64,000 nucleotides of DNA, taken from Azospirillum sp. (GTDB lineage Bacteria > Pseudomonadota > Alphaproteobacteria > Azospirillales > Azospirillaceae). Below the pieces are notes generated by a model, which did no database searches, had not been told where the DNA came from, and was given only the letters and a program-made list of their open reading frames with translations. The stretch covers positions 23,762 through 87,761 of the forward strand of contig DASPIO010000028.1 in NCBI GenBank assembly GCA_035629155.1, in the 5' to 3' direction. This document shows, piece after piece, positions 21,297 to 38,645 of the stretch (position 1 is the first letter of the stretch; every line of letters begins with the position of its first letter). Made by a program: the position numbers and the translations under genes.

Positions 21297-21299
21297 CGC

Positions 21300-21563: not shown

Positions 21564-21571
21564 CTCGTACC

Positions 21572-22192: not shown

Positions 22193-22218
22193 GGGGTGCT
22201 TACCTCCTGGGGGATGGA

Positions 22219-23075: not shown

Positions 23076-23443
23076 GGGGCACCTCGTTCGGCGGGAGGGG
23101 CGGTGCGGTGGGGACAGGACGGGCAGGACGAGCGCAGCAGGCGGGCCAGCGGCGCGTGGGGGCGGAACGGTTGATCCTGTTCGGCGCGGCAGCGGTTGGC
23201 GTCGATCTCGCCCAGCACCGGGCAGGACAGCGGCGCGCCGAGGGTCTGGATGACGGCGGCCTCGATCTTGGCGGTGCCGGCGGCGTAGCTGGCCGACAGC
23301 ACCGCCGACACGGCGGGCTTGCCGTAGCCGATCCGGGCGGCGGCCTGGGCCAGCGACGTGGCGTCGGCCTCGGCGGCGAGGCGCAGGACCCAGGGCGGCG
23401 GATCGCCCCAGGCGGCGGCGGCCTTGGCGACGAAGGGCGTCAT
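23072..23443 (-). CDS. Mu-like early HTH protein with C-terminal Cys cluster
   Basis: SLAQAAARIGYGKPAVSAVL HTH followed by CPVLGEI...C...CPSCP. Confidence 0.8.
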   Translation of the reverse strand: MTPFVAKAAAAWGDPPPWVLRLAAEADATSLAQAAARIGYGKPAVSAVLSASYAAGTAKIEAAVIQTLGAPLSCPVLGEIDANRCRAEQDQPFRPHAPLARLLRSSCPSCPHRTAPPAERGAP

Positions 23444-24036
23444 GCGGCCTCCATCGCGGCGGCAACCGCGTCGCTCGGGCGCCAGACCACGTCCCACAGG
23501 TTGGGGTCGTACAGGGCCCCGTCGCGCAGCGGCATCGGCGGTTCCGGCCCGGTGTTCTTGCCCCGCGCGATGCGGTAGCGGTAGAGGCGGGCGCCGGGGT
23601 CGGCCGCTTCCAGATAGCCGGCGCGCGCCAGGGCGGCGATGTAGGTCTTGGTCGTGTTGATGTTGACTCGCGCCAGGCCGGCCAGCTCCTCCGACGTGAA
23701 GCCTCCGCGCAACGGGCGCATGGCCGACCACAGCCGTTCGGTGGTCGTCGGGTGTGGATCGAGCTTGCCGCCACGGAAGCGAGGGGCGCGGCGGCCGAGA
23801 TCACGCGCCAGCGTGTACACCGACGGCAGCAGTTTTCCCCGATGGCGTGGCCGCTCGGATGTGATGATGCCGTTGCCCATCAACAGCTTGAGGAACGCCT
23901 TGACCTGCCGCTCCGGCACGGCGGCGCCGGCGCGCAGCTCGTCGAAGCCGAAGGTGCGCAGCCGCCGCGCCTCGCGCCACAGCAGGGCGTGATCGACGAA
24001 GCGCATCCGCCGTTGACGCTCGTCGGGGCGGATCAT
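23440..24036 (-). CDS. Mu-like early tandem winged-HTH protein
   Basis: Two wHTH repeats (LW...RRLRTF / LWSAMRPLRGGFTSEELA); conserved position after MuB. Confidence 0.75.
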   Translation of the reverse strand: MIRPDERQRRMRFVDHALLWREARRLRTFGFDELRAGAAVPERQVKAFLKLLMGNGIITSERPRHRGKLLPSVYTLARDLGRRAPRFRGGKLDPHPTTTERLWSAMRPLRGGFTSEELAGLARVNINTTKTYIAALARAGYLEAADPGARLYRYRIARGKNTGPEPPMPLRDGALYDPNLWDVVWRPSDAVAAAMEAA

Positions 24037-24800
24037 GCGAAGCGCCTCACCGCAGGAGCCGCGCCGGTGTTGATCCGCTGGCCGGCGTAGTCGGCCAGCG
24101 ACACGCTGCGCAGCCCCTCGCCCTTGGCGAAGGTGGCGACGTTGACCAGGTTCATCGATACGCGGCGCGTCGACCCGTAGGTCTGGCCGATGAGATGTTC
24201 CAGCAGATCGTCGGCGACGGTGATGTCCGGGCAGTACAGCTTGGCCAGCTCGCGCGCGTCGTCGCCGTCGCAGGGCTGGGCGGCGACGAAGTCGAACACG
24301 CGGCTGTGGAAGCGCTCGTACCGCTGGAGCTTCTGCGGCAGCCCCTCCTCGCCGATCAGGATGATGGAGGCGGTGCCGGGCGCGGCCATGTCGTGGAAGG
24401 CGCGGACCTTGTCGATCATCTCCTTCTTGGCCAGGAAGTCGCCCTCGTCGATGACCAGGGGGCGGCGCGAGGTCTCCAGTTCCTCGGCGATCTTCTCCGC
24501 CATCTCGTTGTTCGTGGCGTGCGTGGGGAGCGCCAGACCCATGGCGTCGACGATGGCGCGCAGCATGGCGCGCGGGGTCCAGTAGTCGTTGGCCTCGACG
24601 TAGTAGGCCATGTGCTCGCTGGCGGCGATCCAGGCGGCGGCGCGGCTCTTGCCGTCGCCGCTGCGGCCATGGAAGACACCGAAGCCGGAGACGTCGGAGG
24701 AGCGCGTCTTGAGCCCGATGACCAGCTCTTCCAGCAGGGTCAGGTTGCGCAGCGGGGCCCAACGGCTGGCGGTCTTGCGGGGGGCGGCCGATTTCTGCAT
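24033..24800 (-). CDS. MuB-type AAA+ transposition ATPase
   Basis: Walker A GRSGDGKS, Walker B LVIDEGD, ILIGEE...RFHSRV; directly after the transposase. Confidence 0.93.
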   Translation of the reverse strand: MQKSAAPRKTASRWAPLRNLTLLEELVIGLKTRSSDVSGFGVFHGRSGDGKSRAAAWIAASEHMAYYVEANDYWTPRAMLRAIVDAMGLALPTHATNNEMAEKIAEELETSRRPLVIDEGDFLAKKEMIDKVRAFHDMAAPGTASIILIGEEGLPQKLQRYERFHSRVFDFVAAQPCDGDDARELAKLYCPDITVADDLLEHLIGQTYGSTRRVSMNLVNVATFAKGEGLRSVSLADYAGQRINTGAAPAVRRFA

Positions 24801-24879
24801 GGTGGGGGTCCTTCGATCAGTGCTGTTTTCCGTGCGGTCCGCGGCGTCCCATCTGGCCATGGGCGCCGCTGGCCGGATC

Positions 24880-27054
24880 TCATTCGACGGGACGGGCGAA
24901 GCGGGCCTTGCGCTCCTGGTCGCGGCGGCGGGCCTGGTACCAGGCCGACGTGCGGTTCGACGCCAGCCAGTCCAGATCGTCCTCCGACACCTCCTCGCCG
25001 GCCTCGATGCGCGCCTCGATCGCCTGGGCGCGGCGCCACCAGCGGTCCTCCGGCTTCTCGGCGGCCTGGGCCGGGGCGGCGAGGCGGCGGGCGACGTCGG
25101 CCTGCCGGACCGTGTCCGCCTCGGTGCGCGGCGCCGCGACGGCGGGCTTCGACGCGGTGATCGCGCGCTGGGCGGCCTCCAGGCCGGCGGAGGGCGGCGG
25201 CAGGGACGAGCGCGGCAGCGCGGAAACCGTGGCCGCGGGCCTGCCGATCAGCGCGTCGGCGAGCTGGTGCGGCTTGAACCCCTTGCCGGCGGCGCGGATG
25301 GCCGCCTTCTGATCGGCGATCAACTGCTGTTGCAGCGCCTTGGCCTGGGCCGACAGCTCGGCCCGCGACAGGCCGGCGCGTTCCGGGTTCTGGGCGATGC
25401 AGAGGAATTGGAACGGATCGGGGCGGTACACGAAGACCCGGTCCATCCGCTCCGGATCCAGTCGGACCTCCAGGCGGTCGCCGGTGCCGACGTAGGGGAT
25501 CAGCTCCGGCGCCCAGAAGTCGGCGTTCTCGACCCGGATTCCCTTTTTGCCCACGGTGCGGGTGCCGTCGCCGTCCGCGCAGGGCATCAGCAGCAGGTCG
25601 AGTTGGCGTTCGTCGACGACGCGCCACTCGGATCCTGCGTGCTCCTCCGCCACGGCGGCCGGGGTGCGGTCGCCCAGGCCGGCGTGCGGGCTGGTGTGAT
25701 AGCGGTTCTCGACCCACGCATCGGCCAGCATCTGCAGCTCGGCCGCCGGCAAGGCCGCCTCGAACACCTCTTCGTCCTTCTGGCCCAGGCGGGCGGCGAA
25801 GGTCTGGCGCGAGCGGATCTCCTGACGCTTGGCCACGTTGTGGCCGGTGTAGCCGGGCAGCAGCGGCATCAGCCCGTGCTGAACCGTGCCGATCGCGCGC
25901 TCGACGTGCGGCTTCTGCTCGGGCGAGTACGGTGTGCAGACGGGGTGCCGTATGGCGTCGCCAACCAGCGCGAAGAAGCGTTGCGTCTCGCGGGCCAGGA
26001 AGTCGGAGCCGTTGTCCGTCTTGATCGCCTCGGGCATGCCCCAGGCGAGGATGGCCCGGCGGATCAGCAGCAGCACGGCCGAGGCGCGCGGCACCTTGGT
26101 GACCAGGATCAGCATGCGGCGCGTGAAGACGTCGACCACGACGTAAATCGTGTGCCGCCCATCGGTCAGCATCAGGTCGGTCGGGCTGGCGTCGATCTCC
26201 CACAGCTCGTTGGGCTTGGTGATCGCCTCCGAATAGGAGCCGACGGCAACGAGGCTGCGGTTCTTCCAGGCGTCGGGGTTGGTCAGCCGCAAGTGGAGCT
26301 GCTTGTACTCCTCGCGCCATTGGTTGAGGCGGCGGCGGATCCAGCCGGCGGTGGGCATCTTCGCCTGACCGCCGCGCAGCAGCTCGAACCCCTCGCCGAA
26401 GCGCTTGACCAGGGCCGCCCGGTAGGCGTCGGCGTTCCAGTCGGGCTTGGCCAGCGCCACGGCGACCAGATAGCCCATGATGTCCTCGCGCGCCTGATCC
26501 AGCGACCCGGCACCCTTGCGGTTGCCGTAGGCGCCGGCCAGCCGGGCGGCCTCGCCGGACTCCACGGCCTCGACCCAGCGGCGAAGGGACGATGGGGACA
26601 CCGTGGGCTTGGCGGCACGGGCCCAATCCGGCACGTCCACCTCGCGGGCGTTGTAGAAGCCGGTGAACTTGTGCACCAGCCGGTCGCGGGACAGGCCGCC
26701 GGCCTGCCGCTCGAAGGCGAGGAAGGCGTTGGCGATGGTGGCCTTGGCGTCCAGCCGGGCCTTGCCGGCCTTGGTCAGCACCACCGGGGCGGCGGCGGTG
26801 CCTTTCAGCGTGGCCGCGAGCTTGGGCGGCGCCGGCGGGGTGGCCTGCTCGGCGGCGCGGCGGCCCAGTTCGATGCGGGCTTCCGGCGGAAGGGCTGTGA
26901 CGTGGTACTCGGTGCCGCCGCCGCGGCCCTGGCGGGGGCGAGCGGGCGACCAGCGTTCCTGCTGGGCCCGCATGTTGATGCCGCGCTTGGTGGACGGCAG
27001 GCCGGGGAGCGCGAAAAAGGCCAGTTCAGAAGCCGTGTACCAGCTTTCATCCAT
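24880..27054 (-). CDS. MuA-type DDE transposase
   Basis: N-terminal Mu DNA-binding domain (WYTASELA..ALPGLPST.RG), DDE motifs WEIDAS / KTDNGSDF / KPHVER, Mu C-terminal domain. Confidence 0.97.
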   Translation of the reverse strand: MDESWYTASELAFFALPGLPSTKRGINMRAQQERWSPARPRQGRGGGTEYHVTALPPEARIELGRRAAEQATPPAPPKLAATLKGTAAAPVVLTKAGKARLDAKATIANAFLAFERQAGGLSRDRLVHKFTGFYNAREVDVPDWARAAKPTVSPSSLRRWVEAVESGEAARLAGAYGNRKGAGSLDQAREDIMGYLVAVALAKPDWNADAYRAALVKRFGEGFELLRGGQAKMPTAGWIRRRLNQWREEYKQLHLRLTNPDAWKNRSLVAVGSYSEAITKPNELWEIDASPTDLMLTDGRHTIYVVVDVFTRRMLILVTKVPRASAVLLLIRRAILAWGMPEAIKTDNGSDFLARETQRFFALVGDAIRHPVCTPYSPEQKPHVERAIGTVQHGLMPLLPGYTGHNVAKRQEIRSRQTFAARLGQKDEEVFEAALPAAELQMLADAWVENRYHTSPHAGLGDRTPAAVAEEHAGSEWRVVDERQLDLLLMPCADGDGTRTVGKKGIRVENADFWAPELIPYVGTGDRLEVRLDPERMDRVFVYRPDPFQFLCIAQNPERAGLSRAELSAQAKALQQQLIADQKAAIRAAGKGFKPHQLADALIGRPAATVSALPRSSLPPPSAGLEAAQRAITASKPAVAAPRTEADTVRQADVARRLAAPAQAAEKPEDRWWRRAQAIEARIEAGEEVSEDDLDWLASNRTSAWYQARRRDQERKARFARPVE

Positions 27055-27541
27055 GATCGGCCTCCCGGATGCGGGCCTTCAGCTGGCTCCGGGCGGCCAT
27101 GTAGCGGGCGACCATCCCATCGCCGGCGTCGAGCATGCGGGCGGCTTCCCTGGCGTCGACGCGGCCGTCATTGCCCATGGCGGCGGCGAACTCCGCGAAA
27201 AGCCGACCTACCTGCTCACCAACGGCGGCCAGATCCTGGGGCAGGTTGCCAGCGTCGGCGTCGGTGAGGGGGCGGAACAGCAGGTAGCCCTGCTCGGCGG
27301 CCAGGAACTCGGTCACCACCATGCAGCCGGAGGCCGCCTGTAGGGCCCGCACGTCCGGGACCTTGAAATGCGCATTGCGGTTCGCGGAGTCCGGATCCGT
27401 GATGCGCTGGATCGTGGATTGCGACAGGCCAGTTAGTTCGGCCGCGCGATCCTGGCCCCGGCACCTCTCGACCAGTTCGGCGTAGGACGCTTTGAGGGTG
27501 CCGGGTTGCCGGGGCTTATACGCGCCTGGGTATTGGGCCAT
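27047..27541 (-). CDS. Phage regulatory protein (CII-like)
   Basis: Sits between ner and A; V..LQAASG..VVTEFLA...GY pattern of CII-like regulators. Confidence 0.65.
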   Translation of the reverse strand: MAQYPGAYKPRQPGTLKASYAELVERCRGQDRAAELTGLSQSTIQRITDPDSANRNAHFKVPDVRALQAASGCMVVTEFLAAEQGYLLFRPLTDADAGNLPQDLAAVGEQVGRLFAEFAAAMGNDGRVDAREAARMLDAGDGMVARYMAARSQLKARIREADHG

Positions 27542-27802
27542 GGTTTTACCCGTTGTGCGAGTAGCGGTTGCGATGCGACGGTCAAGGCGCGAGGAAATGG
27601 AGGATTAAATGCGGCTTGATCGAGCAAACTTCGGGCGGGAGGCGGTCAAGCACCTACTGGTGGGACTCGCCGCGCTGGGCGCGGCGATGTCCTCCGGAGG
27701 ATCGGCGCGGGTGGCGCTGGTTGATGAGGCGGGCCGCCGGTTCGGCTATGCCGCGGCAGTGTGGAAGGTGCGGGGTCTGTACCCGGCGCGGGACGGCGAG
27801 GG

Positions 27803-28090
27803 TCATGCCGCAGCTCTTTCCTCGGCGCCGCCGCGGGTGCGGCAAAGCCGGACACCGTCTGGCCGGTAACGCTCCGGAAACAGGTCGTGCACGGCGACTT
27901 CCAGCCGGTCGGCCAGCGCCCGCTCGATCCTTTCTGACGGTAGGAACAGGGCCTGCGACACGGCCTGGGCGCACACTTCCAGCTCGGCCGCGATCTGGCG
28001 CAGGCTGGAGCCCTTCCGCTTCAGGGAGGCGACCACCCAATCTCTGCGGTCCTGTGGGTCCGAGGGTACTCCGGATCTACGCATCGTCAT
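27803..28090 (-). CDS. ner: Ner-like early regulator
   Basis: WVVASLKRKGSSLRQIA...ERIERALADRL......LFPERY, the Ner/Nlp HTH pattern; divergent from the repressor. Confidence 0.9.
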   Translation of the reverse strand: MTMRRSGVPSDPQDRRDWVVASLKRKGSSLRQIAAELEVCAQAVSQALFLPSERIERALADRLEVAVHDLFPERYRPDGVRLCRTRGGAEERAAA

Positions 28091-28226
28091 CCCTACGACT
28101 ATCGATATGTCTACCGTCGTATCACGAGCATGCTTCGCATGCAACGAGCATTTTCGATGTGGGAATCCTTCCCGGTTCGGCCCACGCTTGAAGGGCGCGC
28201 GCATGTGCAAAGGCGACGGGATAACA

Positions 28227-28787
28227 ATGACTTACGACAACCGGGAAGGGCCGGACGAAGTGGGAAGGGCTCTTCCCACTTACGAGGCGGAACTGGGAAC
28301 ACGGATTTCCCTCGTCATCGACCTGTACGATCTTAAGGCCGACGCGGCACGGGTCGCGGATGTTACGCCCGAGATGTTGAACCGGTACGTGCGCGGACAG
28401 CACAAAATACCCTTCACCAACGCCGCTCGGCTGGCTTCAGCCAAAGGTGTCAGTCTTGACTGGCTGTGGAGCGGAGAAGGACCAATGCTTCTGCGTGATC
28501 GCGTGCACGACTCGCCGCCAGCGGCGGTCGAGTCATTCGACCTTGCGTTGATGGGCAATCTCGTGTCCGGCCTGATGGCATTCCTGCAAAGGGAGAGCCT
28601 GGATCTAGATCCGGAATACATTGGTCGGGCGGTGACCCTGCTTTACATGCTGATGGAGCGCGAGCGCCGCGACACCACCCCGGAGGATCGGCCGGATCTG
28701 TGGGTGGAGGGGCACCCCGTGGACATCGCAAACGATAAAATCCTGGCGGAAACCGTACGCCTCGCACTCGGGCGGTTGCGTAGGTAG
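28227..28787 (+). CDS. Prophage repressor (XRE HTH; no S24 peptidase domain)
   Basis: AARVADVTPEMLNRYVRG...LASAKGVSLDWLWSGEGPM; divergent from ner at the left end, as for Mu c. Confidence 0.85.
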   Translation: MTYDNREGPDEVGRALPTYEAELGTRISLVIDLYDLKADAARVADVTPEMLNRYVRGQHKIPFTNAARLASAKGVSLDWLWSGEGPMLLRDRVHDSPPAAVESFDLALMGNLVSGLMAFLQRESLDLDPEYIGRAVTLLYMLMERERRDTTPEDRPDLWVEGHPVDIANDKILAETVRLALGRLRR

Positions 28788-29277
28788 GACTATCAGGTGT
28801 AGCTTCATGGCTCGCCGCAACCCTGAGTACGTGAGTATGCAGGCCGCGGTGGGGGCCAGGGCTACCAACCCCGGTCGCCCAGGGTGCGCACACACCCCGG
28901 AACGAGAGAACGCAACGACACGCGCTAGTCGCGTCTCGCCCCCCAGCCGCCACGCGGCAAGGGGAAGTGTAAGGCCGGGAGTGTGCATGAAAAGCTTAGA
29001 TGTCGAAGCGTGCTTCCCTTCAAAAACCGTGATCCTCGCCGAATTTGAGGCGATACTCATCCACGCTCGCCCACGGCGTGTGGTCGCATGCCCCTTGTGG
29101 AATGGAGAGTTGAGAGCGTGTCAAAAAGACGATATTTCAACTCGGCCAGAACAGAGGGGCAGCCTTGCTCCTCATCATGATCAATGTGGTCGGTGAGCGC
29201 TGAATTTTCCGTGCGTGTGTAGACGATTGTAGACGGTAAAGCGACAACGCAAAGAGACACATCGGAGGAACGCAGCA

Positions 29278-29514
29278 ATGAAGCCGGAAGACCGTCCGAC
29301 ATCCATGGTTTCTTTTCCGCTAACAATAGTTGGCGTGCTATTTCTTGCCGGAGGCGGGATGATGCTAACCGGCACTCCGCCGAACTTCATCGGCTCGATC
29401 GGCGCGGTGGGGATCGGGCTAGCCCTGATCGGCTTGGCCGGCATCAACACGCGCTTGGCCGAGGTGATCCACGAGTTGCGCCTCATCCGCGCCGCCGCAG
29501 AGAGGGTGCCATGA
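29278..29514 (+). CDS. Small two-TM membrane protein (left-end moron)
   Basis: Two hydrophobic segments; coupled to the next gene. Confidence 0.6.
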   Translation: MKPEDRPTSMVSFPLTIVGVLFLAGGGMMLTGTPPNFIGSIGAVGIGLALIGLAGINTRLAEVIHELRLIRAAAERVP

Positions 29515-30035
29515 AAGCCGGTCACCTCGCCCTGTCTGCTTTCTTCCTTCTCGGATCAGCCGGGCCTTGCGCGGCCGATTGGCAGTTCACCCGATGGGGA
29601 ATGACGGTCGAGGAAGCTGTTCGTGCAGCTGGGGCCGCAGGGGTGAATGTGGATGCGGGCGGCACTGTGCCTTCCGGCGACGGCAAGCTTACGAAGCTCC
29701 CCATTCCATACTACAAGGTGGGCAGTATATTTTTTGATATATCTCTGGTGTTCGAGTCGCCGGATAATAGGCTTGTCATGGTGCTGATGACGGTGAGTCA
29801 GCGCGGCGATTTTGACAGGCAGAAGCTCGACGCCCTGCGTATGGATTTGCTTCAGGCGTTCGGCTCTCCTTTTGCTGTGAATCAGCAAGACGGGTTTGAC
29901 CTCGCGATGTGGCGCGACGTGACCCGCAACAACCGGATATTCGCGAAAATCCGCGTCGATCCGCCGGGCAGAACGGGCGGCCTGCGCGACACCTCCATCA
30001 TGTACACGCCGCTCGTTCCCGTCAGCGCCTTCTGA
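29511..30035 (+). CDS. Exported protein (left-end moron)
   Basis: Signal-peptide-like N-terminus followed by WQFTRWGMTVEE. Confidence 0.7.
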   Translation: MKAGHLALSAFFLLGSAGPCAADWQFTRWGMTVEEAVRAAGAAGVNVDAGGTVPSGDGKLTKLPIPYYKVGSIFFDISLVFESPDNRLVMVLMTVSQRGDFDRQKLDALRMDLLQAFGSPFAVNQQDGFDLAMWRDVTRNNRIFAKIRVDPPGRTGGLRDTSIMYTPLVPVSAF

Positions 30036-30044
30036 CCGGCCACC

Positions 30045-30217
30045 GTCAAACCATCCGTCCGTCAGCGTACAATGCGGCGATGTCCGTATGGTTTGACAGA
30101 ACGGAGTGGACGCGTCTCGAAAACCTAGGCATCACAACGCCTGCACGTCCCACTCGATCCCCCAAAATCCCACCGTATCCCGGCCCCCTATCCCGTCAAA
30201 CCATTGGTCTCTCTACA
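30045..30217 (-). repeat. Helper left end (attL): three transposase-binding motifs (30045-30054, 30088-30097, 30195-30204) and terminal CA
   Basis: GTCAAACCAT / ATGGTTTGAC / GTCAAACCAT; read inward, the end is TGTAGAGAGACCAATGGTTTGAC. Confidence 0.9.
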
Positions 30218-30955
30218 CCGGTGCGTCGATCGCCTCGGGCGTCAGGCGGAAGGTGCCGAAATGCATGGCTACGCTGGTGCGGGCACCCAGGTCCTCGTGC
30301 GCCGCCACCGCCTCCTCCGGGTTCATGTGCTGCGGCGCCATGAACCAGCGCGGCTCGTAGGCGCCGATGGGCAGCAGCGCCACGTCGATGCGCGGGAAGC
30401 GGGCGCCGATCTCCTTGAAATGCGGGCCGTAGCCGGTGTCGCCCGCGAAGTACAGCGTGCCGGCATCCGTCTCCACCACGAAGCCGCCCCACAGCGTCGT
30501 GTTGCGCCGGAAGGGCGCGCGCGCCGACCAGTGCTGCGCCGGCACGAAGGTGACGCGGCAGCCGGCCGGTCCCCGCGTGCTCTGCCACCAGTCCAGTTCC
30601 TCGACGTGCGCGAAGCCGTCGCCGTTCAGCAGCGGCCCGTTGCCCAGCCCCACCACCGCCCGCGGCCCGAAGCGCCGGGCCAGCGCCGCCAGCGACGGCC
30701 GGTCCAGGTGGTCGAAGTGCCCGTGGCTGACCAGCACGAGGTTCGGGTCCGGCAGCCGTTCCAGCGGCACGCCCGGCGGGCGGGCCCGCTTCGGCCCCAG
30801 CCGGCCGAACGGACCGGCCCGTTCGGAGAACACCGGGTCGGTGAGCAGGCGAAGGCCCGCCGCCTGCACCAGGAAGGTGGCGTGGCCGACATGGGTGACC
30901 GCCAGCGCGCCCGGTGCCGGGGGTGCCGGGACCGGCTGCGGCGGGTCCTCGACGC
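30218..30955 (-). pseudogene. Middle fragment of a host MBL-fold metallo-hydrolase (NAPE-PLD/RomA-like), cut by both elements
   Basis: VTHVGHATFLVQ, LLTDPVFSERA, SHGHFDHLD, FAGDTGY, LPIGAYEP, MHFGTF motifs. The reading frame is broken at 30217 (helper end) and at 30956 (satellite end). Confidence 0.95.
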
Positions 30956-31000
30956 TGTAGCGCGCCGAATGGTTTGAATTGGCGCGCTGGATGGTTTGAC
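30956..31000 (+). repeat. Satellite right-type end: terminal TG and two tandem ATGGTTTGA sites (30969, 30991) 22 bp apart
   Basis: Read directly from the sequence; the 22-bp period matches Mu R1/R2 spacing. Confidence 0.88.
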
Positions 31001-31053
31001 AGCGCTGACACCCCGTTTCAGGCTTACCGGGAATTGAAGAAGCCTTGGCGCTT

Positions 31054-31467
31054 CTAGGCTAGCGCCGGCAGTGTCGCATCGTCGCCCAGGTGCGCAATTT
31101 GAACATTCCTTCCCGGCGGCTTCCCCCCTGGAGGCTCGATGATAACAACGCCGTCTTTCGTATGATAATGGATAATCAGGACTGTGCGCGCACATCTGGC
31201 GGGATTGGAAAGACGGGACAGGGCTTGCCGATTGTACTTTTTCAAAAAGCGAAAGCATTCACGCATATAGATCCTGTATTCTTCCTGAATATCTTTGCGG
31301 AGCTGTTCCAATGCCGTTGGGCATGGCGGGTTGCCGCACAGATCGCTTTCCCACTTGGCAAATACATTATTCAAACGCGATGAAAGGTCGGCCGCCACTT
31401 CCCCTGACAGCAGGCGCGCGGTTACCTTCTGTGGGCGCTCCCCTGTGCCGTCATACGCGTGCTGCAT
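31054..31467 (-). CDS. Satellite cargo, hypothetical protein (137 aa)
   Basis: AGGAG upstream of TTG ATG; lower GC. The ORF track labels it '+', but the listed translation (MQHAYDG...) reads on the minus strand. Confidence 0.6.
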   Translation of the reverse strand: MQHAYDGTGERPQKVTARLLSGEVAADLSSRLNNVFAKWESDLCGNPPCPTALEQLRKDIQEEYRIYMRECFRFLKKYNRQALSRLSNPARCARTVLIIHYHTKDGVVIIEPPGGKPPGRNVQIAHLGDDATLPALA

Positions 31468-31518
31468 CAACGTCCACTCCTGATTGGTTCGTTATGCCCT
31501 CCCGCTCGACAAGAGGGC

Positions 31519-31546
31519 CGCTCGGCCGGATCTGGCCGGCCGAGCG
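31519..31546. repeat. Perfect 11-bp inverted repeat just downstream of the satellite chaperone stop
   Basis: CGCTCGGCCGG-ATCTGG-CCGGCCGAGCG; no U-tract, so a terminator role is uncertain. Confidence 0.6.
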
Positions 31547-31554
31547 CGCCGGAA

Positions 31555-32079
31555 TCACTTCGGCTGCTCGCCGTTGACGAGCTGCCAATAGGCGTCCTCC
31601 ATCGCCTTGCCGATCACGCGATAGCCGGCCATGGCTTCCACGAGGTCGGGCGAGAAGTCCGGCAGCGTCGAGAAGAAGGCATTCCAGCCGTGGTTGTCGG
31701 GCAGCCCCACCACCACCTTCCGCAGCAGCTCCGTGCGAAAGCCCTTGTGCTGGCTTTCCAGCTTCTCGACTTTGGCGTTGAGTTCCTTCAGATCCTTTTT
31801 CGCCTTGGCGGCGTTGCCGTCCGACGCTTCCAGGGCGAGTTTCGCGGCCTCCTGCTTGGCCTCCGCGATCTCGCTGACGCGCTGGCCCAGCTCGGCGATG
31901 AGCTGATCGTGCTCGCTGTCCGGCAGCAGCATGAACGACAGATAACAGGTCTTTTTGACCTGTTTCCCACCCACCCAGCCGCCGCTGGCACGCTTGGCCG
32001 TTTCCGGCCAGTTGAACATGACCGGCCACACAAACGTCATTTCGGTGGGGGCTGCAAGAGTAATCTTAACCTGTTCCAT
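31555..32079 (-). CDS. Satellite tail assembly chaperone G (paralogue of 713-1207), no frameshift site
   Basis: Shared motifs TF.WPV...WPE.AK, KTC...F.L.PDSE.D.L, LLR.VVVGLPDNH.W, LP.FS.DLVEAMA, W.LVNG. Ends GAG CAG CCG AAG TGA. Confidence 0.9.
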   Translation of the reverse strand: MEQVKITLAAPTEMTFVWPVMFNWPETAKRASGGWVGGKQVKKTCYLSFMLLPDSEHDQLIAELGQRVSEIAEAKQEAAKLALEASDGNAAKAKKDLKELNAKVEKLESQHKGFRTELLRKVVVGLPDNHGWNAFFSTLPDFSPDLVEAMAGYRVIGKAMEDAYWQLVNGEQPK

Positions 32080-32102
32080 TTCCGCTCTCACTCGTTCTTT
32101 AG

Positions 32103-32540
32103 TTAATCCATCAACGAATTGAAGTATTCTGCAATGTCTCTCCATTCGCCTGTCAAAGACTGCTTTGCTGATGCGATCAGGTCATTGATGTACACCTCAA
32201 CTTCGAACCTGACATTCTTTCTTTTGTTTTGGTACAGCGCGCTCAGTCGGCGCCTCTGCCAGCGCTTTGTTAACATGGACCCGAGAAGGCGTTCGGTGTC
32301 GTCAATGTGCGCCACCAGTATTCTCTCAATGCTTGCTCGCAGATCGGAAAACAGAGGATGTCTGGCATCAAAATGTTCTGATGATCCAACCAGTTCAGAA
32401 AACGCATTGCGATTGCTGATATCCCAGCGTTCCAGCACGCTGCGGATTGCGTCAGCTCCGTTTGTCGGCATAGCGGGGCGCATTATCCGAAACTCGACGC
32501 TGTTGCGGTTCTGGATCGGTATTCGGCCGCGTGCGGGCAC
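32103..32540 (-). CDS. Satellite cargo, hypothetical protein (start uncertain)
   Basis: AT-richer ORF between the Ntn-like gene and the chaperone; no recognised family. Confidence 0.55.
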   Translation of the reverse strand: MPARGRIPIQNRNSVEFRIMRPAMPTNGADAIRSVLERWDISNRNAFSELVGSSEHFDARHPLFSDLRASIERILVAHIDDTERLLGSMLTKRWQRRRLSALYQNKRKNVRFEVEVYINDLIASAKQSLTGEWRDIAEYFNSLMD

Positions 32541-33145
32541 CCAAAGCGGTCGTAATACTCGCTATAATCAGGGTAAAATCCTGCTATTTTTTGATCGGCG
32601 CCATGCTCATTTACTTCGGTAAGATGCATGACGCCACCAATGCACATTGGTTGACTAAATTTCTCCTGTACCTTGTGCTGCCCAAGCGCCATCTTTACCA
32701 TCATGGCCTCATCGGCATGCGCGGGAAGGCGCACACCCGGCGCCATTCTGGGCGCAAGATGAATGCCCGGCTCCATCGTGGTCGCCTGGACAGGCACACC
32801 ACCGGCGCGAAGCTTGTACCTCGTGCTCTGCGGCGCCTGCTTGTTGGCGGACCAGCACATCAACGTGATTTCACCACCGGACGCTTCGAAGAATTCATCA
32901 CCGATACGCTCGGGGACGCCGCGAATAACGATATCCACATGCTCTATGCTTTCGACGCGCGCCAGTACAGGCCCAAGGACTTGAAGAAGCGCATGTGTTC
33001 CGCGCATGGAGAATGCAAATCGGCCGCTCTCAGAGACGAAACACTTTCGTTCGCAAAGGCCAACCGGCATGTTGCCCCGGTATATCATCGTGTCCGTCAG
33101 GCACAAAATGCGGTCGCTTCCCACGAATACGTTGCTGACGCTCAT
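32483..33145 (-). CDS. Proteasome-beta/HslV-like Ntn-hydrolase-fold protein
   Basis: After Met removal: Ser1, Asp17, Lys33, Gly48 and C-terminal IGGVMHLTEVNEHG, matching beta-subunit catalytic spacing. ATGA overlap with the TMP stop. Confidence 0.65.
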   Translation of the reverse strand: MSVSNVFVGSDRILCLTDTMIYRGNMPVGLCERKCFVSESGRFAFSMRGTHALLQVLGPVLARVESIEHVDIVIRGVPERIGDEFFEASGGEITLMCWSANKQAPQSTRYKLRAGGVPVQATTMEPGIHLAPRMAPGVRLPAHADEAMMVKMALGQHKVQEKFSQPMCIGGVMHLTEVNEHGADQKIAGFYPDYSEYYDRFGCPHAAEYRSRTATASSFG

Positions 33146-34530
33146 TTAATTGCCTCTTCGAACGCGGAGACGACTTCGGGGCAGGTCAAGAATTCGTCCG
33201 AGAACTCACACTCGGCCATAACCTTCTCAAGCTCGTTGGACAGATCCTTCAGATTGTCCGTCTGGGTCACGACACCGCCACTGCCGTTGGCGGGCGGGGC
33301 GTTGTCCTGCTTCGTCAGGTCGTTGAGTTCGCGTTGCAGCTCGATCCGGCGCTTGACCAGCGCCTCATGCATGGCGGGAACGCCGCTCGTTTTCTCGGGA
33401 AGGCGCCCGTACTCCCGGTCTATCCGCTCGATCTCCGCCCGCAACAGCGACGCCCTGTCCGACTCGATGCCGGCGCGAAGCGCCTTGGCCGCGTCACTGA
33501 CCTTGCCCGCAACCAGCTTGGCAATGTCGCTCCGGGCGAGGCGGTCAACGTAGGCGTCCCAGGCCACGCCAGCGTCATGCAGCGCGGCGCCCCACTCGCT
33601 GCGCATGGTCTGGGCCGCGCCACCGTACCGCTGGCGCAACGCCTCGATGGCGACGTTCAGCGCGCCGGCCTTGTTGCCGTGGTCAGCCAGCATGCGCACC
33701 TGGCGCTCTTGCTCGACCGACAGGAAGTTCAATTCCGCATCGAGTCGCTTGACGCCCTCGCCCCCCTTGCCGAGAGCGTCCCCCATCTTGGCGGCGGCGG
33801 CCGGGATCGTGTAGCCCAGCACCGCCGCAACATCCGGCGCGAGTTCCAGGATGCTGCGGAACAGCTCCGGGTCACGGAGGTCGGGGTTGCGCACCAGCTC
33901 CAAGGTGGACTGGTATGCTTCGCTGCGGGACGCCCCTGCATGGATCGCGACGTTCGCCATGTCGCGGAGCTGGCCGGCCGTGATGCCGGCCTCATTGCCC
34001 ATCGCCTTCAGGATGGACGCGAGTTCCCGCCCCTCGGCACCGATGCTCGCCATGCGCGCGGCGACGATGCCGATCGGCGCGGCGATCACGGCGGCGGCGG
34101 CGCCGATGCCCAGGATGCGGCCCGTGATGCCGGGGAACGCTTGGAGCAACTGCCCGCCCTGTTGCATCAGGACGGTGAACGGGCTGGCGCCGGACGACAG
34201 CGATGCCGCAACGTCGCTGGCCGTGTAGCTCAGCGCCTGGATCTGCTGCGTGCTGAACCTCGTCTTGGTCGCCAAGTTGTCGTTGGCGCTGGCCGCACCG
34301 CCGAACGCCGCACCGGCCCTGTCGGCGGCGCCGGCCGCAGCGCCCAGCGATTGCTTCGCCTCGTCCGCCAGTGTGTCCAGGCGGCCAAGCGCCTGTGAAA
34401 GTTGCTGGCCAGCTTCCCGGCCAGTATCACCAAGCTTGGACACCTCGCCCGTTGCCTTGCGAAGCTCCACTACGAAGTCTTCGGCTTCCGCAGTCAGCTT
34501 GAGGACGACGTGTTCTGCAACCTTGGTCAT
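33142..34530 (-). CDS. Satellite short tape measure protein (462 aa)
   Basis: QQIQALSYTASDVAASLSSGASPFTVLMQQGGQLLQAF lambda-family TMP motif; N-terminus similar to the helper TMP start at 304. Confidence 0.88.
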   Translation of the reverse strand: MTKVAEHVVLKLTAEAEDFVVELRKATGEVSKLGDTGREAGQQLSQALGRLDTLADEAKQSLGAAAGAADRAGAAFGGAASANDNLATKTRFSTQQIQALSYTASDVAASLSSGASPFTVLMQQGGQLLQAFPGITGRILGIGAAAAVIAAPIGIVAARMASIGAEGRELASILKAMGNEAGITAGQLRDMANVAIHAGASRSEAYQSTLELVRNPDLRDPELFRSILELAPDVAAVLGYTIPAAAAKMGDALGKGGEGVKRLDAELNFLSVEQERQVRMLADHGNKAGALNVAIEALRQRYGGAAQTMRSEWGAALHDAGVAWDAYVDRLARSDIAKLVAGKVSDAAKALRAGIESDRASLLRAEIERIDREYGRLPEKTSGVPAMHEALVKRRIELQRELNDLTKQDNAPPANGSGGVVTQTDNLKDLSNELEKVMAECEFSDEFLTCPEVVSAFEEAIK

Positions 34531-34647
34531 GACGATACTCGCTCGCGATTGGGCCGGCGCTGGACTGCTAGACCAGCCCAGCGCCGGCCGCACTCCGATG
34601 CGGTAAGGAGAGCCGGCCCCCGCACCGGATGCCGCTGGGATGCCCGG

Positions 34648-35568
34648 TTACAGGTACGGGGACACCACCAGTTCGGCGGTGCCGGCCCACTCGTTGGGCG
34701 CCGCGACCGTCTGTTCGTTCGGCGCCGTGCCCACCGTGACCAGCTTCATGTTGTTCTTGATGAGACGCAGCCCGTCGCCTTCCAACTCGTCCGGCACCAC
34801 GAGGATGTTGGGGGTAAGGCCCAGCTTCTTGCCGTTCTCGCCCCGGATGCTCTTGATCGCCACGCGGGCCGCCTCGTAGTTGTCGTGCGTCAGCGGCGCC
34901 TTGCTCGCATAGGCGAGCTGCCAGAGCCCGAAGCCGGCGTTGGCGCGCGCGCGGACGCCGTAGAAATACTCGTCTTTCCAGAAGACGTTGTCGTCCGTGG
35001 CGGCGTCCTGCCTCTGGAACTCGTACGGCAGCCGCTCCTGAAACACGAGGGGTTTGACCGGCTGGCCGGCGTCCATCAGGAACCACGCCGGCCCGGCCCC
35101 ATCCTGATAGTTGCTGTAGGACGTAGGCTGACAGTCGATATCCACGACATGATCAGTGGAGAAGAACGGCTTGCCGTCGTAGCACAGCTCGGTAAACCCG
35201 GCTGCCAGAAGCTCGTACACCAACTGGTCGGGGTGCTTCGCCGCGTCGGCGCCCATCTTCTCGTACAGCGGGCCGAAGACGCCGTACTGGTCATCTTCGA
35301 TGGCCGTACGGGGAACGCCAATGGTCACCTCAAACGTGCGGTTCTTGATGGTGTAGCCCGCGACTTCAAGGTTATGGATGATACGCGAGCCGATCCATTC
35401 CCGAAGCTGCGGAAGTTCCTTCAACCAACCATAAGCTTCTTCGCCCGTCGCGCTGTTTGTCTTCATGGCGATTTTCAGGTACGTGCTTTCGACGCCCTTG
35501 AAGCCCTTGTTGAAGGAGGTCTTGAACCCGGCGAACATGCCGGCGAGGTTGGGGGCGGTGATGAGCAT
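34648..35568 (-). CDS. Satellite Mu-like major capsid protein gpT (306 aa)
   Basis: MLITA...F.GF.TSF, REWIG.R..HNLE, CYDG..FF.TDH, GFG.WQLA..SKA.LT..NYEAAR; divergent paralogue of 4750-5643. Confidence 0.95.
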   Translation of the reverse strand: MLITAPNLAGMFAGFKTSFNKGFKGVESTYLKIAMKTNSATGEEAYGWLKELPQLREWIGSRIIHNLEVAGYTIKNRTFEVTIGVPRTAIEDDQYGVFGPLYEKMGADAAKHPDQLVYELLAAGFTELCYDGKPFFSTDHVVDIDCQPTSYSNYQDGAGPAWFLMDAGQPVKPLVFQERLPYEFQRQDAATDDNVFWKDEYFYGVRARANAGFGLWQLAYASKAPLTHDNYEAARVAIKSIRGENGKKLGLTPNILVVPDELEGDGLRLIKNNMKLVTVGTAPNEQTVAAPNEWAGTAELVVSPYL

Positions 35569-35577
35569 GGCTGTCCC

Positions 35578-36543
35578 TTACAGGTTCTTGGCGTATTCGG
35601 CCGGATCGTGTCCGAGGGCCGCGCAGATGGCCTTCTGTTCGGCGGTAAGGCGCCCATCGGCGCCCGAGTTCGGATCGGGCGGCCGGCCCCCCGGCACCAC
35701 CTCACGGGCGAGGTTGCCGAACACGGGCGGAGCGCTGGCGGCGAACTGGTCGAAGCTGGCCGGGTTGGATCGGCAGAGGACGAGCCCCCACTCCCGCTGG
35801 GCCGGTGTCATCTTGCCGGCGCGGATCGCGGCGTCGACCTTGGCCGTCGCCTGCTCCTCCGAAAGGTTGGTGCGCATGCTGGCGAGCTGCGTCGCGGCTT
35901 CATCATAGAGATGGCGCGGCACGTAGAGGGACGGGTCGGGCACGGCGGCGGCCGTCGCCTTCTCGCTGGCGTCCTTGACCAGCTTCGTGACGGCCTCGAT
36001 CACGGCCGCTTCGTCGCTGGTGTCGGGCAGGTTCAACAGCGCGCACAAGCGCTTGATGGTTTCGGGCGACATGGGCGCTCCCATACTGGCAAGGGCCTTG
36101 AGTTCGAAGGCCGGGTTGTTGACCAGGGCGGCCCGAAGAATGCAGGTGACCGCGCCTTCCTTGGTGTGCCGGAAGACGGGGGACACGTAGCGGTACTCCC
36201 TGGCCGCGATCTTGGCAGCGGCGCGCTGCGTCCACTCCACGCGGCCCCAGATGCCATCAGGGCGGGCCTCAAAGGCCGCGATCCAGCCTGCGGCGGGCGC
36301 CTGTCCACCGTGCGGGGCGGCGAGGTCAACGGCGTGGTCGTAGTCGATCACCGGCTTGACCGGACCGGCCATCGTCAGGGACGCGGCGATCACCTGTTGC
36401 GCGGCGGCCATGCCGGGAAGGGACCAGGGGCCGCGACCGTCGCGGCCCTTGATGGTGCCGTAGGGCAGAAGCTGCACCCAATCCGGCGGTGCGGCGGGGA
36501 GTTCGGAAGAGAAGGAGGCGAGAGCGATCAGGGGATCAGTCAT
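35578..36543 (-). CDS. Satellite prohead protease/scaffold gpI; internal scaffold start at 36072
   Basis: DWVQLLPYG, PVIDYDHA, GIWGRVEWT, EYRYVSPVF, ALVNNPA. GGGAG precedes the internal ATG (MSPETIKRLCALLNL). Confidence 0.93.
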   Translation of the reverse strand: MTDPLIALASFSSELPAAPPDWVQLLPYGTIKGRDGRGPWSLPGMAAAQQVIAASLTMAGPVKPVIDYDHAVDLAAPHGGQAPAAGWIAAFEARPDGIWGRVEWTQRAAAKIAAREYRYVSPVFRHTKEGAVTCILRAALVNNPAFELKALASMGAPMSPETIKRLCALLNLPDTSDEAAVIEAVTKLVKDASEKATAAAVPDPSLYVPRHLYDEAATQLASMRTNLSEEQATAKVDAAIRAGKMTPAQREWGLVLCRSNPASFDQFAASAPPVFGNLAREVVPGGRPPDPNSGADGRLTAEQKAICAALGHDPAEYAKNL

Positions 36544-36910
36544 TGCTAATATCCCCATAGATCTCGCGGCGCACTTTCCTTACGTGGCGTTCAGTACATC
36601 CCACGGCCTGTGCGACGACACGCGTTTTCGCGCCTTCCATCGCCAATATCAGTTCCTTCTTGGAACCAGCCGGCGGCGGCAACACCGGGATGTCAATCTG
36701 TTCTCCAGGATACATATTTCCTATTATTTTGGCGTGCTCCAGTCCGACAATCTTTGCGATCTTGGATCGTTCCGAAGGGCTCGCGGCAAATTTCCTCTTA
36801 GTGCCGCCCCAAGAAAGGCCAAGTTTTATTGCCGTTTCGTATGATGTCGCCCGCGCAATACCCGCCAAGAAGGGAGGAAGCCTCTTGATCCTGTCATCAG
36901 TGATCGCCAT
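36536..36910 (-). CDS. Satellite Mor/C-family activator (paralogue of 15702-16076)
   Basis: WGGTKRK, YPGEQIDIP and GCTERHVRKV shared with the helper activator. Start placed at ATG 36910 by alignment; the track's GTG at 36952 overlaps the predicted -10 box. Confidence 0.88.
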   Translation of the reverse strand: MAITDDRIKRLPPFLAGIARATSYETAIKLGLSWGGTKRKFAASPSERSKIAKIVGLEHAKIIGNMYPGEQIDIPVLPPPAGSKKELILAMEGAKTRVVAQAVGCTERHVRKVRREIYGDISND

Positions 36911-36948
36911 AGCCTTGACGTAGCCCCCCGGCATCGGAATTGGTTCCG

Positions 36949-36995
36949 ACACTAGGGGGACGGAGAAGCGTCTATCGACGCGGAACTAGTTCCCC
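36949..36995 (-). promoter_or_regulatory. Satellite late promoter: dyad GCGGAAC-TA-GTTCCCC (36980-36995) plus -10 TAGTGT (36949-36954)
   Basis: Same dyad and 25-nt spacing as the helper late promoters. Confidence 0.7.
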
Positions 36996-37067
36996 TTTGT
37001 CGGGGGAGCTGAGAGATATCCAGCTTTGATGAAGAGGAGCGGCCGATACGCCCGGCCGATTGCCGCC

Positions 37068-37092
37068 CGTTTGAACGGGGCTTTGAACGCCT
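37068..37092. repeat. Tandem TTTGAACG repeat shared with helper 7369-7393
   Basis: CGTTTGAACGGGGCTTTGAACGCCT vs CGTTTGAACGGGGTTTTGAACGCCT, 24/25 identical. Confidence 0.85.
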
Positions 37093-37251
37093 CTGGGGCG
37101 TAGGGCGCACCCACGCTACCGGAAAACGCCAGAACGCACCAGCGGGCTTCCTGTGGGCTTCCAGGGCGGGGCACCCGGCAGCCACCTCCAATGCGAAACG
37201 CCCCGCCGGTAGACCCGGCGGGGCGTTGGTGTCGGCAGCGCGGCGAGGCGT

Positions 37252-37584
37252 CTACGCCTCGCGGGCGTGCCCGCCAGCGCCAACCGCGCGCTCCATGATC
37301 GTATCGACCTTCTCCGTGACTAGCTCCAGCATGGCGATCCACTGGCCCCGCTCGGTGGTGCCCATGATCATCGCTTCAATGGCGCGCAGTCCGGCCTTCA
37401 CCTGCATCAGGTCGTCGCCCAGGCTGTGTTCTGCCTCGCCAGCGACGTAGCCGGCCATGCCCCTCCTACGCGCCTTCCCCATGATGGACGTGAGTTCTTC
37501 GATCACCGCTTCTCTGACCGCGCTCCCCCGCTCCGCGCTGTTCTTGAGGAAGATCACGTTGTTTCCGGTGTTGTCGTGGGCCAT
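37252..37584 (-). CDS. Satellite early hypothetical protein (110 aa)
   Basis: AGGAGG upstream of ATG; helical ORF downstream of the Bro-like gene. Confidence 0.6.
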   Translation of the reverse strand: MAHDNTGNNVIFLKNSAERGSAVREAVIEELTSIMGKARRRGMAGYVAGEAEHSLGDDLMQVKAGLRAIEAMIMGTTERGQWIAMLELVTEKVDTIMERAVGAGGHAREA

Positions 37585-37691
37585 ATTCGAAGAGCCTCCT
37601 ATGGGTTCGCCCGGTGGCACGGTGGCGGGGCACGGTTTTCCAGGCCAAGCGCCCCGCCACCACCCGTCGCGGGCGGTGGGGTGGTAGGGAA

Positions 37692-38216
37692 TCACGATCC
37701 GGCGATGTCGAGGATGCGACGCGCCTTCTCGATGGTGACCGTCAGTTCCATGCGCACGAGGTTGGTTGTGGGGATGCCAGCCCCCGCCTCGCCCATGTCC
37801 AGGCCCGGCGGGATCGGCGGGGCCTCACCCTCCGGCCCGAAGGTCGTGTAGAGCCACCGCAGCACCCCAACGGCGTGGGCGGAGCGACTACGGGCCACCA
37901 TCACCTTCGCGGCAGGGATGGAAAGAAGGCGGGTTGCGGCGCCTCTCCCGTCGTCGATCTGGCGCAGTAGGACGGCGCCCGGCTCTCGCAGTTCCGGGAA
38001 GGTTGACGCGGCATGGTCCACCGACTGCCTTGCCCAACTGGCGCCGGCCGCCCGCATCAGGTCGTTGCCGAGGACGTAGGTTGTGCCGTCCACCGAGAAG
38101 ACGCGGACGGGGGCCGCACCACAGTAGAGGGTGCAGACAGGCGGCAGGCGGGCGTTGTCGGCTGGCACCTCGGGCCGTCCTTCGGCGGGGGCCGCTGGTG
38201 TGCGGGGATCGTCCAT
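37692..38216 (-). CDS. Bro-N / antirepressor-like protein
   Basis: VRVFSVDGTTYVLGNDLMRAAG...LLSIPAAKVMVARSRS.HAVGVLRWL pattern. Confidence 0.7.
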   Translation of the reverse strand: MDDPRTPAAPAEGRPEVPADNARLPPVCTLYCGAAPVRVFSVDGTTYVLGNDLMRAAGASWARQSVDHAASTFPELREPGAVLLRQIDDGRGAATRLLSIPAAKVMVARSRSAHAVGVLRWLYTTFGPEGEAPPIPPGLDMGEAGAGIPTTNLVRMELTVTIEKARRILDIAGS

Positions 38217-38244
38217 CTACTGCTCCAAACTGCGGTTGCGTTGG

Positions 38245-38315
38245 CCCCATGCATGGGGTAATTTGCCCCAGATTGGGCGCCGTTGCAATGGCAAAATGCG
38301 CCAACGTTGGGGTAA
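38245..38315. promoter_or_regulatory. Three operator-like dyads between divergent regulators
   Basis: CCCCATGCATGGGG (38245-38258, perfect), CCCCAGATTGGGCG (38266-38279), CGCCAACGTTGGGG (38299-38312). Confidence 0.65.
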
Positions 38316-38323
38316 ATCGCACC

Positions 38324-38560: not shown

Positions 38561-38645
38561 GACGTGCTACCGATCACCAATGCGAGGGTGTCAACGCCAA
38601 AGTGATGCACCTTAACCACCGGCATCACTGTGGTAAGGTGCGCAC

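What the first reader, a model, noticed from the sequence alone, without database searches (positions are those of the whole stretch)
30218..30955. Helper and satellite are inserted in the same host gene, 738 bp apart and in the same orientation
Seen: the MBL-hydrolase gene is split into 39463-39612, 30218-30955 and a missing C-terminus. Known: Mu inserts nearly at random and shows target immunity near its own ends, so two independent hits this close are unexpected. Inferred: either a strong local hotspot, local hopping, or joint arrival. The outer ends (helper R and satellite L) could also move the pair as one composite transposon, and headful packaging from the satellite end would read into the helper's early region.
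Basis: partly seen in the sequence, partly recalled or inferred. Interest (0 to 1): 0.65.

Follow-up and report, generated by a model that had tools for sequence, protein, structure and literature searches.

The report
Phage satellite inserted beside its helper
A Mu-like prophage and a small transposase-less Mu-ended element that depends on it really do interrupt one soil-bacterium gene 738 bp apart and in the same direction, which classic phage Mu would not allow; a related pair elsewhere hints that such satellites land near their helper's left end.

Summary
A metallo-beta-lactamase-fold (MBL) hydrolase gene on the minus strand is cut after about codon 49 by an 8,507-bp element with Mu-type ends and no transposase (30956-39462; 5-bp duplication GACGC). 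It is cut again after about codon 294 by the left end of a Mu-like prophage (terminus 30217). Removing the satellite restores the frame. The intact orthologue has 327 aa, so 33 aa lie beyond the window.

Three assemblies and the contig graph of the source-like metagenome support all three visible junctions. The spacer is native gene sequence, so the pair did not arrive here as one composite transposon. In that metagenome about 24% of the population appears to carry the helper junction but an empty satellite site, so the two elements are separable.

E. coli Mu makes no insertions within 1.5 kb of its own ends, so a 738-bp spacing is unexpected. A related satellite-like element in IMG/VR sits, co-oriented, inside the ner gene of its own helper. 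This hints at a bias towards the helper's left end, but there are only two cases.

The parts
1..30217 (-). Mu-like helper prophage. Only the left 30.2 kb lies in the window; the tape-measure gene starts at 304 and runs off the window start.
   Evidence: Pfam and PHROG hits for MuA, MuB, Ner, CII, portal, F, protease, gpT and tail genes. The full-length tape-measure protein P0002 has 2030 aa.
30196..30217 (-). Helper left-end terminal motif TGTAGAGAGACCAATGGTTTGA. The terminus is at 30217.
24880..27054 (-). MuA-type transposase, 724 aa. The gene starts 3,163 bp inside the left end.
   Evidence: Pfam HTH_Tnp_Mu_1, rve and Mu-transpos_C.
24033..24860 (-). MuB-like AAA+ target-capture protein.
   Evidence: Pfam AAA_22. 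It is 73-76% identical to the B genes of related prophages.
27803..28787 (.). Helper control region. ner is on the minus strand (27803-28084) and the c repressor on the plus strand (28227-28787), with a 142-bp divergent gap between them. The gap lies about 2.0 kb from the helper left end and about 2.7 kb from the satellite right end.
   Evidence: Pfam HTH_35 and HTH_3; gene calls on L001; distances.
30218..30955 (-). Middle piece of the MBL hydrolase gene (codons about 50-294). This is the 738-bp spacer. Its first five bases, CCGGT (30218-30222), are the presumed helper target duplication.
30656..30726 (.). Point inside the spacer where the two co-existing strains of the source-like metagenome start to differ. 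They are identical to the left, including the helper, and about 6-7% diverged to the right.
   Evidence: Bubble contigs at depths 124.4 and 38.8; a 484-nt empty-site contig at depth 39.3.
30951..30955 (.). Satellite target-site duplication, copy 1 (GACGC).
30956..39462 (-). 8,507-bp satellite. It has Mu-type ends and carries a Mor-like activator, gpI protease/scaffold, gpT capsid, a short tape-measure gene and small regulator genes. It has no transposase, MuB, terminase or portal gene.
30956..30977 (+). Satellite right-end terminal motif TGTAGCGCGCCGAATGGTTTGA. A second GGATGGTTTGA site follows at about 30989-30999.
   Evidence: The same type of right end occurs on the IMG/VR relative.
39441..39462 (-). 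Satellite left-end terminal motif TGTGGAGAGACCAATGGTTTGA. It matches the helper left end at 57 of 60 bases.
39463..39612 (-). N-terminal 50 codons of the MBL gene. Bases 39463-39467 are copy 2 of GACGC.

Best explanation
These are two separate Mu-type transposition events into the same chromosomal gene, not one composite arrival.

Shown: each visible junction is a clean element end, and the satellite has its own 5-bp duplication.

Inferred: the satellite has no transposase and shares the helper's left-end sites, so it must have been inserted by the helper's MuA. I think the insertion most likely happened in a cell that already carried the helper, or was being infected by it. I also think the nearness reflects a bias of satellite integration towards the helper's left (early) end.

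Two candidate mechanisms, both inferred:
- (a) In a lysogen, MuA and MuB are made only briefly and at low level from the prophage's left arm. Transpososome assembly and target capture then happen on nearby DNA, and MuB-dependent cis-immunity is weak.
- (b) MuA bound to the incoming satellite ends also binds the helper's operator/enhancer region between c and ner. This tethers the complex within 2-3 kb of that region.

The co-orientation puts the satellite's right end, and any transcription reading out of it, towards the helper's early operon. It also leaves satellite L and helper R as a usable outer pair of ends.
For: Junctions and in-frame restoration.

The satellite lacks MuA/MuB, and its left end matches the helper's at 57 of 60 bases.

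The arrangement is real. An ENA contig (L001, 99.99% identical) spans satellite, spacer and helper left arm. Logan contigs span the helper junction (9,203 nt) and both satellite junctions (9,000 nt).

The elements are separable. In run X1 a path at depth 39 crosses the satellite site without the satellite. No contig there shows an empty helper site, and the helper-junction contig has the summed depth of 162. Runs X3 and X7 hold helper words but not satellite words.

Second case. In IMG/VR UViG_2622736628_000006 a satellite-type gpI-gpT element has a right end about 80% identical to this satellite's over the first ~45 nt. It ends exactly inside ner of a helper whose MuA is 61% and MuB 73% identical to this one, in the same orientation. 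Two relatives, L151 and run X19, have ner intact at that point.

E. coli Mu forbids insertions within 1.5 kb of its ends, and this depends on MuB (PMC7350765).

No terminator-like site lies between the satellite's last gene and the helper's early region.
Against: - There are only two cases. The second came from a provirus collection, which favours satellites that touch a prophage.
- The nested case could instead be explained by selection for a disabled helper.
- The order of events is not proven. The two strains differ by a recombination breakpoint inside the spacer, so the helper-only form may have arisen by recombination.
- No survey of satellite-to-helper distances was possible.
- It is not known whether this phage has Mu-like cis-immunity at all.
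- Strain phasing rests on contig k-mer depths, not on reads.
- The helper's right end was not seen.
Confidence: 0.4

Rival explanations
1. Coincidence or a regional hotspot. Helper and satellite each hit this gene independently, with no influence of one on the other. Either the gene lies in a favoured target region for this transposase, or the gene is dispensable and, once broken, costs nothing to hit again.
For: Some D3112-type Mu-like phages have hotspots with up to 1700-fold excess (PMC5977238). The gene is non-essential, because two insertions are tolerated. Relatives carry it intact. This window was picked for oddity out of very many.
Against: The two sites are 738 bp apart and share no target motif (GACGC against CCGGT). 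Known hotspots are point-like, spanning about 13 bp. No other insertion in this gene appeared among the eight members of its 90% cluster or in other runs. The a priori chance is about 2e-4. Dispensability can raise that only a few-fold. The nested second case needs a separate explanation.
Confidence: 0.3
2. The pair was assembled by homologous recombination. The helper entered the gene in one strain and the satellite in another. A later recombination, for example after transduction of phage or satellite DNA with its attached host flanks, brought the two alleles together.
For: In X1 the two co-existing strains are identical across the helper and the first 438 bp of spacer. They diverge by about 6-7% from about 30656 rightwards. 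The host DNA to the right is broken into many small strain bubbles, whereas the helper and the satellite assemble as long unbranched contigs. A recombination breakpoint therefore lies between the two elements.
Against: It still needs two independent hits in the same 984-bp gene, so it does not remove the coincidence. No satellite-only haplotype (satellite present, helper site empty) was seen in any run.
Confidence: 0.15
3. Joint arrival as one composite transposon (satellite L ... helper R), or an assembly chimera of two strains.
For: The outer ends are a correctly oriented L/R pair. Classic Mu genetics moves host DNA that is flanked by two co-oriented Mu copies (my own knowledge of the Faelen and Toussaint work). 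The source is a metagenome with at least two strains.
Against: Against the composite: the spacer is the native middle of the gene, in frame and 93% identical to the orthologue. The satellite has its own duplication at its own two ends.

Against the chimera: the helper junction carries the full population depth of 162. The satellite path carries the major-strain flow of 124 against 39 for the empty path. At least about three quarters of the genomes must therefore carry both. An independent ENA contig spans everything.
Confidence: 0.04

Closest known systems
Helper-embedded PICIs (HE-PICI; Tommasini, Mageeney and Williams 2023, PMC10111431)
   Same: A satellite is physically linked to its helper prophage and co-oriented with it, which gives a cis relationship as well as a trans one. 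The IMG/VR relative found here is truly embedded in a helper gene.
   Different: HE-PICIs use a site-specific integrase that targets late genes of lambdoid prophages, and they excise precisely. Here there is no integrase. Insertion is Mu-type transposition with a 5-bp duplication. The place is the helper's early (left) end, or 738 bp outside it.
Mini-Mu elements and Mu cis-immunity (Mizuuchi; Harshey; PMC7350765, PMC2837660)
   Same: The element has Mu ends and no A/B genes and is moved by transposase supplied in trans. Termini are TG...CA and the duplication is 5 bp. The helper has MuA and a MuB-like ATPase.
   Different: Laboratory mini-Mu and wild-type Mu avoid DNA within 1.5-5 kb of a Mu end. 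This natural element sits 738 bp from one, and a relative sits inside the helper genome. It also carries its own capsid, protease, activator and short tape-measure genes.
Mu-mediated transposition of host DNA flanked by two co-oriented Mu copies; mini-Mu transduction (classic Mu genetics, from my own knowledge)
   Same: Two co-oriented Mu-ended elements bracket a host segment, so the outer ends could in principle move the whole unit.
   Different: There the two copies are identical products of replicative transposition. Here they are different elements whose capsid proteins are about 50% identical. The evidence shows that the unit did not arrive here in that way.
Capsid-forming satellites (cf-PICI), and P4 with helper P2
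   Same: A small element with its own capsid or activator genes depends on a helper for the rest of the virion.
   Different: Those elements integrate with their own integrases at their own att sites, unlinked to the helper.

Membership tests
Mu-like transposable prophage (the helper) | DDE transposase of MuA type together with a MuB-like AAA+ protein | tested here: met
   Pfam HTH_Tnp_Mu_1, rve, Mu-transpos_C and AAA_22.
Mu-like transposable prophage (the helper) | TG...CA termini with repeated transposase-binding sites, and a 5-bp target duplication | tested here: inconclusive
   The left terminus and its sites are present. The right end and the second CCGGT copy lie outside the window.
Phage satellite of a transposable phage | Lacks its own mobilisation and packaging genes (transposase, MuB, terminase, portal) | tested here: met
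   No such Pfam or PHROG hits in any satellite ORF. No tblastx match to helper A/B.
Phage satellite of a transposable phage | Carries the helper's cis-acting end sites | tested here: met
   The left ends agree at 57 of 60 bases, and all three ends share the terminal motif.
Phage satellite of a transposable phage | Is mobilised or amplified by the helper | not testable with these tools
   Indirect evidence only. Satellite contig depth is 469, against 141-162 for the helper, with no second assembled junction. One RNA-run contig joins the satellite's left end to a different flank.
Composite transposon (pair moved as a unit) | The duplication lies at the outer ends, and the internal spacer is foreign to the locus | tested here: not met
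   The spacer is the native, in-frame middle of the interrupted gene. The duplication flanks the satellite alone.
Helper-embedded satellite (HE-PICI type) | Tyrosine integrase targeting a helper late gene; the satellite lies inside the helper | tested here: not met
   There is no integrase. The satellite lies 738 bp outside the helper. Only the co-orientation and the physical linkage are shared.
Mu-type cis-immunity | No insertion of a Mu-ended element within about 1.5 kb of a resident Mu end | tested here: not met
   The spacing is 738 bp, against the published 1.5-kb exclusion zone. Whichever element came second, it landed inside the zone. This assumes both events occurred in one lineage.

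The most novel reading that the evidence does not exclude
Satellites of transposable phages may home to the left (early) end of their helper prophage and insert co-oriented next to it or inside it. This would override Mu-type target immunity. It would be a transposition-based counterpart of helper-embedded PICIs. The satellite's outward transcription and its left end would then be wired in cis to the helper's repressor/transposase region.
Probability: 0.25. Interest if true: 0.8.

Novelty: new variant of a known kind. Interest (0 to 1): 0.55.

Why it matters
Target immunity is one of the best-studied rules of Mu transposition. A natural Mu-ended element 738 bp from a resident Mu-type end, and a relative inside a helper genome, are exceptions to that rule that can be tested directly. 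My full-text searches found no description of satellites of transposable phages. If these satellites seek the helper's early end, this would be a second, mechanistically different route to the cis-linked satellite-helper composites so far known only for integrase-bearing PICIs. It would also affect how such pairs spread together, through outer-end transposition or through transduction with flanks.

Tried and rejected
The sequence upstream of the window could not be read.

Attempts to walk to the helper's far end, all unsuccessful:
- The 427-aa protein, the tape-measure protein P0002, its cluster mate P0013 and a 138-aa neighbour are 'not on record'.
- Look-ups of the 159-aa, 164-aa and 187-aa proteins returned only short or truncated contigs.
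- Logan contig L004 ends inside the tape-measure gene.
- JGI contig L057 starts about 170 bp short of the predicted junction.
- The tape-measure C-terminus found nothing useful in metagenome contigs or viral contigs.
- A tail-fibre homologue search from a related phage did not return the window's orthologue.
- Laying X1 contigs on the satellite's right end did not pull out the helper's right end.

Survey attempts:
- The end-motif scan of genome contigs gave mostly chance hits and only one Mu-like left end; the window's own genome is not in that collection.
- The short tape-measure and peptidase queries in viral contigs and plasmids found no close relatives.
- The gpT scan gave 80 loci, nearly all complete Mu-like phages. 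Only one, L101/L150, is a close satellite relative.
- The MuA scan gave four relatives.
- The Azospirillum argentinense plasmid hit is a complete prophage.
- A search for the missing half of the nested case found nothing.

Rejected ideas: composite arrival, and a two-strain assembly chimera (reasons under the rivals).

Full report
**What is there.** The window is about 70% G+C. A terminal motif, TGTRGNGNGNCNAATGGTTTGA, occurs exactly three times: 30196-30217(-), 30956-30977(+) and 39441-39462(-). About 0.01 matches are expected by chance.

Inside 30217, on the minus strand, lie a c-type repressor (plus strand), ner, a CII-like gene, a 724-aa MuA transposase and a MuB-like AAA+ gene. Terminase, Mu portal, F, protease, gpT, connector and tail genes follow. 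A 2,030-aa tape-measure gene runs off the window start. So 30217 is the left end of a Mu-like prophage that extends beyond window position 1.

The stretch 30956-39462 (8,507 bp) has a left end at 39462 that matches the helper's at 57 of 60 bases. It has a different but related right end at 30956. It encodes a Mor-like activator, gpI, gpT, a short tape measure and small regulators. It encodes no transposase, MuB, terminase or portal. Its capsid protein is only about 50% identical to the helper's, so it is not a recent deletion derivative.

**The split gene.** GACGC flanks the satellite on both sides. Joining 39612..39468 to 30955..30218 gives a continuous 294-codon MBL-fold hydrolase frame. The closest intact orthologue is P0057, 327 aa and 93% identical. 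It lies between ClpP and two small genes in an Azospirillum MAG. ClpP also lies next to the N-terminal piece in the window. The satellite therefore sits after about codon 49 and the helper after about codon 294, and 33 codons are missing. Related strains in three other soil runs carry the gene uninterrupted across both sites.

**Is it an assembly artefact?** No.
- An ENA metagenome contig (L001, two mismatches in 15.3 kb) runs from ClpP through the satellite and spacer into MuB.
- Logan contigs of run X1 span the helper/gene junction (9,203 nt) and both satellite junctions (9,000 nt). Short contigs join them.
- In X1 the spacer holds a strain bubble with depths 124.4 and 38.8.
- A 484-nt contig at depth 39.3 crosses the satellite site without the satellite. 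It reads CACCC where the window has GACGC.
- No contig in X1 shows an empty helper site. The helper-junction contig has depth 162, which is the sum of the two strains.

I read this as about 76% of genomes carrying helper plus satellite and about 24% carrying the helper only. This rests on contig k-mer depths, not on reads. Runs X3 and X7 hold helper words but not satellite words.

**What this says about origin.** The spacer is native gene sequence, and the satellite has its own duplication. The pair therefore did not transpose into this locus as one composite.

The two strains are identical across the helper and the first 438 bp of spacer. They differ by 6-7% from about 30656 rightwards, and the host DNA further right is full of strain bubbles. 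A recombination breakpoint therefore lies between the two elements. This means the helper-only form does not by itself prove that the helper came first.

**Why it is unexpected.** In E. coli, wild-type Mu makes no insertions within 1.5 kb of its own ends. Insertions rise sharply at about 5 kb and reach bulk level at about 7 kb. This depends on MuB; without MuB, insertions start at 98-600 bp (PMC7350765). Two random hits within 738 bp of each other have a chance of about 2e-4 in a 6-7 Mb genome. Hotspots do exist for some Mu-like phages (PMC5977238), but they are point-like. The two targets here share no motif.

**A second case.** Among 80 IMG/VR loci with gpT relatives, one has gpI and gpT much closer to the satellite's copies (56-66%) than to the helper's. 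This is UViG_2622736628_000006, held here as L101 and L150.
- An IS256 element interrupts its gpT.
- After one further ORF comes a right end...TCAAACCAAACTTCGCGCTACA. It is about 80% identical to the window satellite's right end over its first ~45 nt.
- That end abuts the body of a ner gene directly. CII follows, then MuA (61% identical to the window's) and MuB (73% identical), all in the same orientation.
- Alignment with the near-identical relative L151, and an isolate run (X19) with intact ner, place the breakpoint exactly at the terminal CA.

So a related satellite-like element is inserted inside its helper, next to the c-ner control region and co-oriented. In the window, the satellite's right end is 2.7 kb from that region.

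Caveats apply. There are only two cases. A provirus database favours satellites that touch prophages. A helper disabled by such an insertion may also be selectively retained.

**Mechanism (inferred).** The satellite must be inserted by the helper's MuA. I favour a bias towards the helper's left arm, by one of two routes. Either MuA and MuB are scarce and made locally in a lysogen, or MuA tethers the incoming ends to the helper's operator/enhancer. I put this at about 40%. The rivals are coincidence or hotspot (about 30%), recombinational assembly of two separately hit alleles (about 15%), and composite arrival or chimera (about 4%).

No terminator-like site separates the satellite's last gene from the helper's early region, so read-through is conceivable. 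The outer ends, satellite L and helper R, form a proper pair.

**Comparison with what is known.** The nearest concept is the helper-embedded PICI (PMC10111431). That system uses integrases and targets late genes. My searches found no description of satellites of transposable phages.

**Not done.** The helper's right end, its CCGGT copy and the last 33 codons were not seen. The only indirect support is that the gene fragment, the tape measure and the gene's normal downstream neighbour are each recorded on a JGI contig of the same length, 268,980 bp.

Noticed in passing
window 30956-39462, compared with 1-30217 and 39463-45000: In the source-like metagenome X1 the satellite contig has k-mer depth 469. 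The helper has 141-162 and the host flanks about 117-167. No second junction is assembled at either satellite end. The surplus of about 3-fold would fit copies with many different flanks (transposition products or packaged DNA) without amplification of the helper. Read-level confirmation is needed.
   Followed up: partly
window 39462-39467: In metatranscriptome run X2 a 984-nt contig runs out of the satellite's left end into a different flank (GACG then TCGGCGATGGTGCGCG...). This flank is absent from the window and from all loci. It may be a second insertion site or a chimeric contig. In X2 the contig at the right end also starts exactly at 30956.
   Followed up: partly
window 30218-30655, compared with 30656 onwards: The helper plus exactly 438 bp of left flank is identical in two strains that otherwise differ by several percent. 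This looks like transfer of the prophage with a short attached host flank by homologous recombination. Virion DNA of Mu-type phages could supply such a fragment.
   Followed up: no
L150 1515-2934: An IS256-family element, 88% identical to one on an Azospirillum plasmid, interrupts the capsid gene of the nested satellite-like element. That copy is therefore decaying.
   Followed up: yes
window 41369-41407: In every DNA run laid here, depth spikes (about 1550 in X1) and many contigs end with unrelated loose ends at this roughly 35-bp spot. It is probably a highly repeated short sequence in the host region.
   Followed up: no
L057 224-640: The window's organism has an extra 138-aa gene between the 79-aa and 187-aa genes downstream of the MBL gene. 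The empty-site relative L055 lacks it.
   Followed up: no
plasmid collection hits H27-H58: Dozens of Klebsiella, Enterobacter, Aeromonas and Yersinia plasmids carry a gpT-type capsid gene, often with a phage protease, but gave no MuA match at E<=1e-30. They may be capsid-bearing elements without a transposase. I did not examine them.
   Followed up: no
L109 (IMGVR_UViG_639633059_000003, 12.3 kb): This small viral contig has MuA and MuB followed within 2 kb by a gpT capsid gene. That is an unusually compact Mu-like arrangement.
   Followed up: no
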